Source of the DNA: a virus
Taxonomy: Monodnaviria > Loebvirae > Hofneiviricota > Faserviricetes > Tubulavirales
Direction: 5' to 3' (one strand)
Virus record (IMG/VR): IMGVR_UViG_2529293142_000001
Location: 1 to 9,373 of that record
DNA: 9,373 nucleotides
The notes under the pieces are model-generated. The model did no database searches. It saw nothing but the letters and a program-made list of their open reading frames with translations, and was not told the origin of the DNA. Positions 152 through 9,373 of this stretch are shown piece by piece (position 1 is the stretch's first letter; each line of letters opens with the position of its first letter). The translations under genes were made by a program, and so were the position numbers.

Positions 152-538
152 TCAAGTAATTTCATCATTGTGGTGCTGTATATGGTGCCTGATTTTATTT
201 AGCAACTCTTCTAAGTTTCTTGATCTTAGCAAGGTAATACCAGTGAACTTAAAGATCATGTTTACTTTTTGATCTCTATCAACTCTATCAGGAAGATCGT
301 GTGAATAGTCATCAAGTTCAATTGCACATATGATTGAAAAATCATTTTTATTAACAATCAAAAAATCTATATGATATTGAGATATAGACCTAAATGCTTT
401 TATAAATGAATTATATTGAGTGTTCTTGTCAAATATAGGAACGATAATGTCTACCATTCTAACCTGTGAAAACACAAAAAAGTCCTGATGAAATTCATCA
501 TAAATCAATTTAAAAAAGCGACGTTCGCGATTGCTCAT
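152..538 (-). CDS. Hypothetical small protein, DUF2726-like / PD-(D/E)xK nuclease-like fold (128 aa)
   Basis: ATG at 538..536, TGA at 154..152. Motif block HIDFLIVNKNDFSIICAIELDDYSH...RDQKV...GITLLR matches my recollection of the DUF2726 pattern (VDFLI...IELDG.SH...RD..K...GI.LLR). Local sequence is much more AT-rich than the phage genes (about 25% GC in a 60-nt sample at 301..360). No clear Shine-Dalgarno upstream. Domain call is from memory, not a search. Confidence 0.45.
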   Translation of the reverse strand: MSNRERRFFKLIYDEFHQDFFVFSQVRMVDIIVPIFDKNTQYNSFIKAFRSISQYHIDFLIVNKNDFSIICAIELDDYSHDLPDRVDRDQKVNMIFKFTGITLLRSRNLEELLNKIRHHIQHHNDEIT

Positions 539-1026: not shown

Positions 1027-3595
<2,569 letters not shown>

Positions 3596-3612
3596 GTTTT
3601 ATCCCCGCATGA

Positions 3613-3972
3613 TTATTTACCAACAGAAAGTCCATTTGATTTAAACAAATCATAAATCAAACGATACACCCTGTCCTTATAAAGATATATGTAAGAGATA
3701 AATTGAACATGAAGAATGATATTAAAACAATCCTGAATGTTCAGAGGTAAGTAACTAAATGCAATTGTTATAACATCAATTTTATTAACCACGGAAATTT
3801 GACGAATAATAAAATTAACTGCAGTAATAAGTGCATAATATGACGTATAACAAAGACCAAGATAAGAAATAAGTCTGGCCCATGCGACAGCCTTATCGCC
3901 AATCAATCCGGCAATAAAACGTAGAGATTTTAAGACAATCTCAACAAAAAAAGCGCCTAAAATAGCCCACAT
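3613..3972 (-). CDS. VI: pVI-like minor coat protein (119 aa, hydrophobic)
   Basis: ATG at 3972..3970 overlaps the gene III TGA stop (ATGA). Size and hydrophobic character match Ff pVI (112 aa), and it sits between gene III and gene I as in Ff. Call is by position and composition, not motif. Confidence 0.55.
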   Translation of the reverse strand: MWAILGAFFVEIVLKSLRFIAGLIGDKAVAWARLISYLGLCYTSYYALITAVNFIIRQISVVNKIDVITIAFSYLPLNIQDCFNIILHVQFISYIYLYKDRVYRLIYDLFKSNGLSVGK

Positions 3973-5438
3973 CAGGATTTAACCTCACGTTCAAAAAGTG
4001 TACGACGCGTAATCACAAAAACACGAAGCATGGTCATCATATAAAGGGTGTATTCAAGAATGGAGCGAACATAATAATCATAAGCCTTTGCAAAATCAGT
4101 TGTGTCAACCTTAAAACCAATCACTCCAATTAAAGGAAGGTTAAAACTAAATTGCAAAACAAAAGGAAGTGCAATCCCATTGTTTGTATTCAATAGTTTA
4201 TCCAAATCGATTGTTAACCAATTACTATCATCATAATTTTCACTTCCCTGACCAGGCAAATATTGAGAAAGATCACTTAAAGGGAAATCACCTTCAGGTA
4301 AAGACGAAACCATATTTTTATTAATATTCTCAATACCGTTATCCAGTGAGTTTAAAGCATTGTCCATATCTGACTGAGAAACAGAAAAAATATTATTCAG
4401 ATCATTCACTGAACTCCAGATTCTCTGCAACCAGCCAAGAATATCACCAAGCCAGCCATCATCATCACCGGAAGTACTGCCACCGGATGAACCGCCGGAA
4501 GTGCTGCCACCGGACGAACCGCCGGAAGTGCTGCCACCGGATGAACCGCCGGAAGTGCTGCTGCCGGATGAACCGCCGGAAGTACTGCCACCGGATGAAC
4601 CGCCGGAAGTACTGCCACCGGACGAACCGCCGGAACTGCTGCCACCGGACGAACCGCCGGAAGTGCTGCCACCGGACGAACCGCCGGAAGTGCTGCCACC
4701 GGATGAACCGCCGGAACTGCTGCCGCCGGATGAACCGCCGGAACTGCTACCACCGGATGAACCGCCGGAATTATCACCACCTGATGACCCTCCTGAAACG
4801 CCACCACCGGATAAATTCCCCGAATTATCACCACCGTCAGTATTACCGTTATCTCCTTTATCTTCAGTATCTCCTTTATCTTCAGTATCTTCTTTATCAG
4901 AATAAGCCGGATCAACAGTTACAGGTTTCCAGGTAGCGGTACAAGAATCTGTACCATCGGGACAAATAACAACACCCGTTGCCTTATAAATGCATCCATG
5001 AATGGTGACATATTGATTACCCTCATCATCCTTATAAAAACCTGACAAAGAAACATTACTAAGCTCAGGACGGGATAAACAAACCTCCTCAGTAGGTTTA
5101 GCTGAATACGAAGCACCAAAATATTGACCGTAAAAGCTATCCTTACACTGAGAATAAACCTTAACACCATCCTCAAAATGGTAAGACTTATAAGAGATCC
5201 AGTTACCTGTAACCAGTAAAAAAGGCATACCAGAAAGTTGCTTAGTATCGCTGTAAGACGTCGTACAATAAAACGTATCACCTGAGCAGGATGCATATCC
5301 AGTAGTACAGGGTGGAGCTACACCGGCCCTTGCAACACGGGTACCGGAACCTGAATCACCAAGATATTCTGTCGTTGAAGCTGCATATGCAGAATCAAAT
5401 GAAAAAACCGCTACGAGGAAAATAAATATATATGCCAA
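3972..5438 (-). CDS. III: pIII-like adsorption / minor coat protein (488 aa): Cys-rich N-terminal domain, long Gly/Ser linker, hydrophobic C-terminal anchor
   Basis: Only available start is TTG at 5438..5436 (the frame opens at a TGA two codons upstream), preceded by GGGGTGAG Shine-Dalgarno; M13 gene III likewise uses a non-ATG (GTG) start. N-terminal hydrophobic leader, Cys-rich domain (about aa 40-180), acidic TEDKGD repeats, then (SGGSSGGST)n linker, then C-terminal domain ending in a hydrophobic anchor, which is Ff pIII architecture. Follows gene VIII and its terminator. Confidence 0.75.
   Translation of the reverse strand: MAYIFIFLVAVFSFDSAYAASTTEYLGDSGSGTRVARAGVAPPCTTGYASCSGDTFYCTTSYSDTKQLSGMPFLLVTGNWISYKSYHFEDGVKVYSQCKDSFYGQYFGASYSAKPTEEVCLSRPELSNVSLSGFYKDDEGNQYVTIHGCIYKATGVVICPDGTDSCTATWKPVTVDPAYSDKEDTEDKGDTEDKGDNGNTDGGDNSGNLSGGGVSGGSSGGDNSGGSSGGSSSGGSSGGSSSGGSSGGSTSGGSSGGSTSGGSSGGSSSGGSSGGSTSGGSSGGSTSGGSSGSSTSGGSSGGSTSGGSSGGSTSGGSSGGSTSGDDDGWLGDILGWLQRIWSSVNDLNNIFSVSQSDMDNALNSLDNGIENINKNMVSSLPEGDFPLSDLSQYLPGQGSENYDDSNWLTIDLDKLLNTNNGIALPFVLQFSFNLPLIGVIGFKVDTTDFAKAYDYYVRSILEYTLYMMTMLRVFVITRRTLFEREVKS
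4468..4791. repeat. Tandem 27-bp repeat array, 11 near-identical units plus 1 degenerate unit, in frame inside gene III
   Basis: Unit CCGGAAGTRCTGCCACCGGAYGAACCG repeats head-to-tail from 4468 with only 1-3 substitutions per unit; the last unit (4765..4791) is degenerate. Encodes the (SGGSSGGST)n linker on the minus strand. Confidence 0.9.
4851..4898. repeat. 18-bp tandem repeat (about 2.7 copies) encoding acidic TEDKGD repeats of pIII
   Basis: ATCTCCTTTATCTTCAGT at 4851..4868 and 4869..4886, then partial ATCTTCTTTATC at 4887..4898. Confidence 0.7.
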
Positions 5439-5457: not shown

Positions 5458-5480
5458 AAAAAAGCGCCCCGCAGGGCGCT
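5458..5480 (-). terminator. Rho-independent terminator immediately downstream of the major coat protein gene
   Basis: Minus-strand reading gives AGCGCCC-UGCG-GGGCGCU (7-bp stem, 6 G:C pairs, 4-nt loop) followed directly by a U6 run, 16 nt after the gene VIII stop. Ff phages have a strong terminator at the same place, between gene VIII and gene III. Confidence 0.65.
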
Positions 5481-5495
5481 GTTGTTAAATAACTA

Positions 5496-5756
<261 letters not shown>

Positions 5757-6527: not shown

Positions 6528-9373
<2,846 letters not shown>

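What the first reader, a model, noticed from the sequence alone, without database searches (positions are those of the whole stretch)
4468..4791. Highly homogeneous 27-bp tandem array encoding the pIII linker
Eleven units differ by only 1-3 substitutions each, which implies recent expansion or ongoing concerted evolution. Such arrays are prone to unit gain or loss, which would change the linker length between the receptor-binding and anchor domains. The array is also a likely assembly-collapse hotspot.
Basis: seen in the sequence. Interest (0 to 1): 0.4.

Follow-up and report, generated by a model that had tools for sequence, protein, structure and literature searches.

The report
Repeat-encoded flexible linker of phage pIII
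This is a real 27-base tandem repeat that encodes the floppy glycine/serine tether of the host-attachment protein (pIII) of a filamentous prophage in E. coli; its copy number differs between related prophages, as is already known for other filamentous phages, so it is genuine but ordinary.

Summary
Observation confirmed. Eleven head-to-tail 27-nt units lie at 4468-4764 (codon register 4473-4769, minus strand), each 0-2 substitutions from the consensus, with 0 matches expected by chance. They lie in frame in a 488-aa pIII/g3p-like gene (3972-5438, minus) of an inovirus prophage and encode (SGGSSGGS[T/S])11.

An N1 (TolA-binding) domain homologue lies just upstream. AlphaFold models the repeat as structureless, between a confidently folded N-terminal module and a low-confidence helical C-terminal part.

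The units are far more alike at DNA level (2.1 differences per 27 nt) than protein constraint alone would give (8.8). Related prophages carry 11, 12, 12, 17 and 18 units. Draft assemblies show about 2-18 units, and some contigs end inside the array.

Positional orthology inside the array is erased even between near-identical flanks. The same 27-mers join unrelated N-terminal heads to the same C-terminal domain, so the array sits at a module-exchange boundary.

Copy-number variation of glycine-rich g3p linkers is already published for IKe and UPΦ phages.

The parts
4473..4769 (-). Core array: 11 in-frame 27-nt units, consensus TCCGGCGGTTCATCCGGTGGCAGCACT = SGGSSGGST (equivalent to 4468-4764 in the + strand register)
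4770..4850 (-). Three degenerate 27-nt units at the 5' side of the array (NGNTDGGDN, SGNLSGGGV, SGGSSGGDN)
4850..4898 (-). Second small in-frame tandem repeat, 18 nt (DTEDKG), 2.7 copies; one copy fewer in L001
4374..4472 (-). Partial last unit plus a conserved junction segment (SGDDDGWLGDILGWLQRIWSSVNDLN...) that is nearly invariant across all C-domain types; similarity to the closest prophages ends at about 4374-4377
4452..4895 (-). Whole predicted disordered linker (residues 182-329)
   Evidence: pLDDT about 27-30, no secondary structure
3972..5438 (-). pIII/g3p-like minor coat (adsorption) protein gene, 488 aa, TTG start preceded by a GGGGTGAG Shine-Dalgarno-like stretch
4914..5099 (-). 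N1-like (TolA-binding) domain, residues 114-175, directly upstream of the linker
5100..5381 (-). Confidently folded beta-rich N-terminal region (residues 20-113) of unknown specificity; inferred to be the primary-receptor-binding part
   Evidence: inference
3975..4451 (-). C-terminal domain (residues 330-488): helices, a beta-hairpin and a long terminal hydrophobic helix followed by basic residues
3613..3972 (-). pVI-like gene; together with the pIII C domain it forms the exchanged cassette (about 3596-4374)

Best explanation
The array is an in-frame coding minisatellite. It encodes most of a roughly 145-residue, intrinsically disordered Gly/Ser tether in the pIII (g3p) adsorption protein of a temperate filamentous phage of E. 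coli.

The tether connects an N-terminal receptor-binding module to the C-terminal domain. The N-terminal module is an uncharacterised beta-rich region plus an N1-type TolA-binding domain. The C-terminal domain is built into the virion tip together with pVI.

The units are near-identical 27-mers, and 27 is a multiple of three. Replication slippage or unequal recombination therefore adds or removes whole 9-residue units without breaking the reading frame. As a result, linker length differs among related prophages and the order of unit variants is continually reshuffled.

The array, together with the conserved segment just after it, is also the stretch shared by pIII genes that carry different heads and different tails. 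It therefore marks, and probably provides the homology for, exchange of these modules.

Shown here: the repeat, its frame, the domain context, predicted disorder, DNA-level homogeneity, copy-number differences, loss of positional orthology, and module boundaries at the array.

Inferred: slippage or recombination as the mechanism, and that length changes are largely tolerated rather than tuned.
For: - Repeat and frame.
- pIII identity and gene order: Pfam PF05357, 29.4 bits against a cut-off of 20.8. PDB sequence matches 4eo1 at 3.5e-10 and 1fgp at 2.5e-8. Foldseek gives TM-score to target 0.79-0.85 against the IF1 and IKe N1 domains. PHROGs hits for pI, pIV, pVI and pVIII.
- Disorder: pLDDT about 28 over residues 182-329, against 82-92 for residues 20-180.
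- DNA homogeneity beyond protein need: 2.07 observed against 8.81 +/- 0.66 expected, with a minimum of 6.36 in 5000 simulations.
- Copy number: 11 units in the window; 12 in L001 and L006; 12 in both tandem copies of L007; 17 plus one 15-nt unit in both copies of L002/L005; the same array with one more unit in L012. Database proteins show linkers of 24-168 aa, varying in unit-sized steps within one N/C combination.
- Turnover: the 162-nt leader differs at 1 site between the window and L007, but the best positional alignment of the arrays gives 21 differences in 297 nt, the same as random unit pairing.
- Module boundary: the N domain is 96% identical to L001/L002/L007 and the C domain 62-64%; against L004 the C domain is 80% and the N domain 60%. 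The breakpoint lies at about 4374.
- Shared array with unrelated heads: L014 and L015 have an unrelated head, the same 27-mers and a 97% identical tail, with homology starting at the 5' edge of the array.
- Literature: Ff pIII domains are joined by flexible glycine-rich linkers that are invisible in cryo-EM (PMC10175506). [quoted passage not shown]
Against: - No experimental evidence for this phage: no virions, receptor or infectivity data.
- The C-terminal domain has no detectable sequence match to the Ff pIII C domain and is modelled at low confidence.
- Many copy-number values come from short-read drafts, where arrays can be collapsed. Only four independent long arrays come from complete genomes or a full-length viral contig.
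- The two tandem copies within one genome have identical arrays, so instability is not visible on that short timescale.
- The window carries many frameshifts in other genes, so its assembly quality is uncertain.
Confidence: 0.85

Rival explanations
1. Linker length is adaptively tuned. Unit gain and loss acts as a rapid switch that adjusts the reach of the receptor-binding head, and so host range or infection efficiency. The polymorphism would then be selected, not neutral.
For: - g3p is the most variable gene in related enterobacterial inoviruses, and a link to host specificity has been suggested but not tested (PMC7307601).
- Linker length spans 24-168 aa in relatives.
- Long linkers are proposed to let several pIII copies clamp a pilus (PMC10175506).
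Against: [quoted passage not shown]
- The same head/tail combination occurs with many different lengths, with no visible association.
- Part of the spread may be assembly collapse.
Confidence: 0.15
2. The unit number in this window is an assembly artefact (collapse or expansion of the repeat), so the array as read does not reflect the real genome.
For: - Draft contigs break inside the array.
- 96 member sequences belong to protein clusters that end in the linker.
- The window has about 12 single-base indels in the replication and IS110 genes relative to L001, which could indicate an error-prone assembly.
Against: - The ORF is intact and in frame.
- Arrays of 12-18 units exist in complete genomes.
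- The indels are confined to 6528-9373, while 1043-3604 aligns to L001 without a single gap. That pattern looks more like gene decay than random sequencing error.
- The window-specific variant units (three AGT units) would not be produced by collapse.
Confidence: 0.1
3. The repeat acts at the nucleic-acid level, for example as a hairpin-rich element of the single-stranded phage genome or a dedicated recombination site, with the protein linker secondary. Alternatively it encodes a second product in another frame or on the other strand.
For: - The coding strand folded as ssDNA is more stable than shuffles (z = -4.9).
- Four of the six frames are open across the array.
- RefSeq annotates the antisense ORF as a protein in CP039404.
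Against: - The predicted structure is only unit-internal mini-hairpins from CCGG-type Ser/Gly codons, and no inverted repeats of 15 nt or more were found.
- Open alternative frames are automatic for a stop-free repeat.
- The antisense annotation coincides with a mis-split of an intact 528-aa pIII ORF.
- Other lineages have different DNA units (15 nt GGGxS, 27 nt SGGSSGGGS) at the same place but always encode Gly/Ser. This points to selection on the protein.
Confidence: 0.04

Closest known systems
Glycine-rich linkers G1 and G2 of Ff (M13/fd/f1) pIII/g3p
   Same: - Flexible Gly/Ser repeat tethers between the receptor-binding domains and the C domain at the virion tip; they are disordered and invisible in cryo-EM (PMC10175506).
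- A homologous N1 domain lies next to the linker.
- Same gene order: VIII-III-VI-I-IV.
   Different: - Here there is one long linker (about 145 residues), not two short ones.
- The unit is 9 aa / 27 nt, SGGSSGGST, without Glu; the Ff motif (E)GGGS is from my own knowledge.
- The N1-like domain is preceded by another folded region without a linker, rather than being at the N-terminus.
- The C domain shows no detectable sequence similarity to the Ff C domain.
Glycine-rich repeat region of g3p in IKe/I2-2 and UPΦ prophages (Lineavirus-related enterobacterial inoviruses)
   Same: - Copy number of the glycine-rich repeat linking the N- and C-terminal domains is the main source of gene III variation among isolates (95 variants in 229 genomes).
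- It changes within a few generations in IKe (PMC7307601, citing Bruno and Bradbury 1997).
   Different: - Different repeat motif (GGGES there).
- Apparently a different phage group: no isolated phage in the collection exceeds 34% identity in pI, and pIII has no tblastn hit.
- This prophage sits between ybiB and hcxB with an IS110-family transposase, rather than only at dif.
YpfΦ / CUS-1 (dif-integrating filamentous prophages of Y. pestis and E. coli K1)
   Same: - Enterobacterial temperate inoviruses.
- Relatives of the window prophage lie as tandem copies next to hipA, the neighbourhood of dif in E. coli (the dif location is from my own knowledge).
   Different: No YpfΦ or CUS-1 sequence could be compared here, so the relationship is untested. 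The reviews read (PMC4266046) do not mention a repeat linker.
In-frame coding minisatellites (VNTRs) in bacterial and phage surface proteins
   Same: - Unit length is a multiple of three.
- DNA-level homogeneity far above what the protein needs.
- Copy-number polymorphism between strains and loss of positional orthology.
   Different: It is not a phase-variable contingency locus: no change of unit number can shift the frame or switch the gene off.

Membership tests
Inovirus pIII/g3p adsorption (minor coat) protein | N1-type TolA-binding domain | tested here: met
   Pfam PF05357 at 29.4 bits against a cut-off of 20.8. PDB 4eo1 at 3.5e-10 and 1fgp at 2.5e-8. Foldseek against 2x9b and 4eo1: TM-score to target 0.79-0.85, rmsd 1.5-1.7.
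Inovirus pIII/g3p adsorption (minor coat) protein | Flexible glycine-rich linker between the N-terminal domain(s) and the C domain | tested here: met
   Residues 182-329 are Gly/Ser-rich, with pLDDT about 28 and no secondary structure.
Inovirus pIII/g3p adsorption (minor coat) protein | C-terminal domain with a terminal hydrophobic anchor helix that is incorporated at the virion tip with pVI | tested here: inconclusive
   The predicted helices, beta-hairpin and long terminal helix 450-487 followed by basic residues resemble the description of the f1 C domain. But pLDDT is below 50 and there is no sequence match to the Ff C domain. Virion incorporation cannot be tested here.
Inovirus pIII/g3p adsorption (minor coat) protein | Gene position between the major coat gene and the pVI/pI/pIV genes | tested here: met
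   PHROGs: major coat protein (5496-5738), pVI-like (3613-3972), pI at 1.8e-50, pIV at 6.1e-117. Pfam Zot and Secretin.
Inovirus pIII/g3p adsorption (minor coat) protein | N-terminal signal peptide | tested here: inconclusive
   A hydrophobic N-terminus ends in AYA-A and is modelled as helix 2-17. No signal-peptide predictor was available.
Coding minisatellite with copy-number polymorphism | Head-to-tail units, length a multiple of 3, reading frame preserved | tested here: met
   27-nt units, no indels, intact 488-aa ORF.
Coding minisatellite with copy-number polymorphism | Unit number differs among homologous loci | tested here: met
   11, 12, 12, 17 and 18 units. P0056 against P0084: 8 against 3 units on identical flanks.
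Coding minisatellite with copy-number polymorphism | Instability observable within a strain or lineage over short times | not testable with these tools
   The two tandem copies within one genome are identical. Passage experiments or read-level data would be needed.
Phase-variable contingency locus (simple-sequence frameshift switch) | A change in repeat number shifts the reading frame or promoter spacing | tested here: not met
   Unit and sub-unit lengths (27, 15, 12 nt) are all multiples of 3, and every variant seen stays in frame.
UPΦ / Lineavirus (IKe, I2-2) group | High sequence similarity of core morphogenesis genes to IKe/I2-2/UPΦ901 | tested here: not met
   The best tblastn identity of pI to any record in the phage collection is 34%, and all 58 hits are below 60%. 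pIII has no hit. UPΦ901 itself was not compared directly.
YpfΦ / CUS-1 group | Sequence similarity to the YpfΦ/CUS-1 genome | not tested

The most novel reading that the evidence does not exclude
The shared SGGSSGGST array plus the adjacent conserved GWLGDILGWLQRIW segment acts as a universal recombination joint in an uncharacterised family of E. coli inoviruses. It would allow unrelated receptor-binding heads to be re-assorted with co-adapted tip cassettes (pIII C domain plus pVI). The same repeat instability that generates length polymorphism would thereby drive host-range evolution.
Probability: 0.3. Interest if true: 0.45.

Novelty: new member of a known kind. Interest (0 to 1): 0.25.

Why it matters
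For biology, it adds little that is new in kind. Glycine-rich repeat linkers of filamentous-phage attachment proteins, and their copy-number variation, are established.

It does document the phenomenon quantitatively in a widespread but undescribed E. coli prophage family. It also shows that the repeat coincides with the boundary at which receptor-binding heads and tip cassettes are exchanged, which matters for understanding how host range evolves in these phages.

Practically, it matters for genomics. The array breaks or collapses short-read assemblies and inflates the number of apparent pIII 'variants' in protein databases. It also causes automatic annotation to split an intact pIII gene and to call a spurious antisense protein.

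Tried and rejected
- Megablast of the pIII gene and tblastn of pIII against the phage collection found nothing. pI reaches only 34% identity, so no named phage could be assigned.
- Exact look-up of the window's pIII protein found nothing on record.
- A peptide-pattern scan of species-representative genomes found no relatives.
- A scan for the DNA unit found only one stray single-unit match, in a Lachnospiraceae MAG. I judged it a chance Gly/Ser-coding match and did not pursue it.
- A higher-order 81-nt period was rejected: TRF reports it at 87% matches, against 93% for the 27-nt period.
- Array-specific concerted evolution since the split from the closest relatives was rejected: within-array distance equals between-array distance.
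- A phase-variation switch was rejected, because all unit sizes are multiples of three.
- A functional antisense or alternative-frame ORF was rejected.
- A long-range ssDNA structure was rejected: only unit-internal mini-hairpins were predicted and no inverted repeats were found.
- The paper on the distal linker of g3p (J Virol 2000) could not be read because it is not held.

Full report
**1. The observation.**
Tandem Repeats Finder reports an array at 4468-4770 with period 27, 11.2 copies, 93% matches and no indels. A search with the consensus finds exactly 11 copies at 4468-4764, spaced 27 nt apart, each with 0-2 mismatches. None is expected in 200 dinucleotide-preserving shuffles.

Read on the coding (minus) strand and in codon register, the units lie at 4473-4769. 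The consensus is TCCGGCGGTTCATCCGGTGGCAGCACT, which encodes SGGSSGGST. Only six columns vary. Four are third-codon positions. Two are non-synonymous: Thr to Ser in three units and Gly to Ser in one.

Two further degenerate units follow on the 5' side. A separate 18-nt repeat (DTEDKG) lies at 4850-4898.

**2. What it lies in.**
All long ORFs are on the minus strand. They form the morphogenesis module of a filamentous phage:
- a pVIII-like major coat gene (5496-5738);
- the 488-aa ORF that holds the array (3972-5438);
- a pVI-like gene (3613-3972);
- pI/Zot (2384-3595);
- a pIV secretin (1044-2273).

The 488-aa protein passes the Pfam cut-off for Phage_Coat_A. Its residues 114-175 match the TolA-binding N1 domains of IKe and fd g3p (E = 3.5e-10 and 2.5e-8).

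An AlphaFold model from a 30-sequence alignment gives three regions:
- residues 20-180 are confidently folded (pLDDT 82-92);
- residues 182-329 are featureless (pLDDT about 28);
- the C-terminal part has helices, a beta-hairpin and a long terminal helix, at low confidence.

The N1 part of the model superposes on the IF1 and IKe N1 structures with TM-score to target 0.79-0.85. In f1, pIII is described as N1, N2 and C domains separated by flexible glycine-rich linkers that are invisible in cryo-EM (PMC10175506). 'Linker of pIII' is therefore well supported. Identification of the C domain rests on position and predicted secondary structure only.

**3. Homogeneity.**
Mean pairwise difference among the 11 units is 2.07 per 27 nt. 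If only the peptide were constrained, and codons were drawn from the usage of the phage's other genes, the expectation is 8.81 +/- 0.66, with a minimum of 6.36 in 5000 simulations. The similarity is therefore a DNA-level property.

Synonymous codon difference among units is 0.17. Between orthologous N-domains of the closest prophages it is 0.04-0.06, and between distant lineages 0.30-0.45.

Among the close relatives (window, L001, L007, L002), within-array and between-array unit distances are the same (2.05-2.44). The same polymorphic sites recur in all of these arrays.

The L003 lineage has a related but distinct 27-nt unit (TCCGGTGGCTCATCYGGCGGCGGTTCY). Units differ by 1.4 within that array and by 7.5 from the window's units. 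That is similar to the 22% divergence of the flanking N-domains.

So units have been homogenised or re-expanded since the deep split, but not since the shallow ones. What has happened recently is shuffling. The 162-nt leader of the linker differs at one site between the window and L007. Yet the best positional alignment of the two arrays gives 21 differences in 297 nt, which is what random pairing of units gives.

**4. Copy number.**
The window is E. coli DNA, and related prophages occur in complete E. coli genomes. Unit counts in those and in one viral contig are:

| Source | Units |
|---|---|
| Window | 11 |
| CP027550 (L001) and the ybiB-hcxB copy of EC12 (L006); identical protein | 12 |
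| Both tandem copies near hipA in EC12 (L007); different unit order | 12 |
| Both tandem copies in CP039404 (L002/L005) | 17 plus one 15-nt unit |
| IMG/VR contig L012; the L002-type array, same 3' signature | one unit more (660 against 633 nt between anchors) |

Among 120 database homologues the linker ranges from 24 to 168 aa. It varies in unit-sized steps within a single N-domain/C-domain combination. P0056 and P0084 have identical flanks and 8 against 3 units. Other lineages carry a 15-nt GGG(S/N)S unit at the same position, again with variable number. Values from short-read drafts may be underestimates.

**5. Assembly and annotation.**
Contigs L009, L010 and L011 end inside the array. The three protein clusters that end in the linker stand for 96 member sequences. 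In CP039404 an intact 528-aa pIII ORF is annotated as two fragments plus an antisense 'hypothetical protein' lying within the array. In the window, four of the six frames are open across the array. This is automatic for a stop-free repeat.

**6. Module exchange.**
The window is 96-98% identical to L001, L005 and L007 except for about 3596-4374, which covers pVI plus the pIII C domain. There it is only 62-64% identical to them, but 80% to L004 and 98% to draft contig L008. The right-hand breakpoint lies about 95 nt beyond the array, at the end of a segment (GWLGDILGWLQRIW...) that is nearly invariant in all lineages.

Conversely, L014 and L015 carry an N-terminal domain unrelated to the window's. 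It is joined by the same 27-mers, rotated by 12 nt, to a tail that is 97% identical. Homology begins at the array's 5' edge.

Across the database, head type N0 occurs with tails C0-C3, and tail C0 occurs with at least three kinds of head. The array and its conserved neighbour are thus the common core around which heads and tails are re-assorted. Whether the array itself supplies the recombination homology is an inference.

**7. Mechanism.**
Most likely (confidence 0.85), the array is a slippage- and recombination-prone in-frame minisatellite encoding a disordered tether. By my own estimate, each unit adds nine residues, about 3.3 nm of contour length.

The unit is itself an imperfect 12 + 15 nt duplication (SGGS + SGGST). 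This explains the 15-nt short unit seen in L002. Folding the coding strand as ssDNA gives only small hairpins within units (z = -4.9) and no inverted repeats. Such hairpins might favour slippage, but that is speculative.

Functional consequences of length are untested here. The only experimental precedent found is for IKe, where a longer glycine-rich region conferred no selective advantage (PMC7307601 citing Bruno and Bradbury 1997).

**8. Comparison with what is known.**
Copy-number variation of the glycine-rich g3p linker has been reported as the main source of gene III diversity in UPΦ prophages of Enterobacterales, and as arising in culture in IKe (PMC7307601). The present phage is not close to any isolated phage in the collection: pI is at most 34% identical and pIII has no hit. 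Its relation to YpfΦ/CUS-1 could not be tested. The finding is therefore a new member of a known kind.

**9. Verdict.**
The one refinement is that the data show turnover of a shared pool of unit variants, not homogenisation private to this array. Interest is low to moderate (0.25). The most novel reading still open is the array as a recombination joint for head and tail exchange (probability about 0.3).

Noticed in passing
window 6528-8530 and 8527-9373: The replication-endonuclease gene is broken into at least 7 ORFs and the IS110-family transposase is split. Relative to L001 there are about 12 single-base indels here, whereas the pIV/pI region 1043-3604 aligns without any gap. This suggests decay of the replication and integration genes with intact morphogenesis genes, or uneven assembly quality.
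   Followed up: partly
window 3596-4374: A cassette made of pVI plus the pIII C-terminal domain has been exchanged as a unit relative to the closest prophages: 62-64% identity to them, 80% to L004 and 98% to draft contig L008. The left boundary coincides with the start of pI.
   Followed up: yes
window 4850-4898: A second in-frame tandem repeat, 18 nt (DTEDKG), is itself polymorphic: the window and L007 have one more copy than L001.
   Followed up: partly
L002 5520-7106 (NZ_CP039404.1): RefSeq splits an intact 528-aa pIII ORF into fragments and annotates an antisense ORF inside the array (WP_062865521.1) as a hypothetical protein. This is an annotation artefact caused by the stop-free repeat.
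   Followed up: yes
L001, L004, L006 versus L005, L007: One prophage family uses two chromosomal locations. Single copies lie between ybiB and hcxB next to an IS110-family (RNA-guided) transposase. Tandem copies without that transposase lie next to hipA, the dif neighbourhood. Strain EC12 carries both.
   Followed up: no
window 5463-5480 (minus strand): A GC-rich hairpin followed by a T-run lies between the pVIII-like and pIII genes. It resembles the terminator after gene VIII in Ff phages.
   Followed up: no
window 152-538 (minus strand): A DUF2726-family gene lies at the ybiB-proximal end of the prophage. It is only about 74% identical to the L001 copy and shorter (128 aa) than the annotated homologues. 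It is probably an accessory gene.
   Followed up: no
window 4346-4936 (+), 4501-4905 (+), 4406-4915 (-): Three additional long ORFs run through the array in other frames (for example a PPDEPPEVL repeat). They are a by-product of a repeat without stop codons, and there is no evidence that they are genes.
   Followed up: partly
L013 7947-7973 (Lachnospiraceae MAG CADBEN010000005.1): A single exact 27-nt match to the unit occurs inside another Gly/Ser-coding stretch. It is probably a chance or convergent match.
   Followed up: no
P0013, P0016 (database homologues): These are hybrid linkers, with GGGSSGGSS-type units at the 5' side and SGGSSGGST-type units at the 3' side. This suggests crossovers within arrays between lineages. 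It was seen only at the protein level.
   Followed up: no
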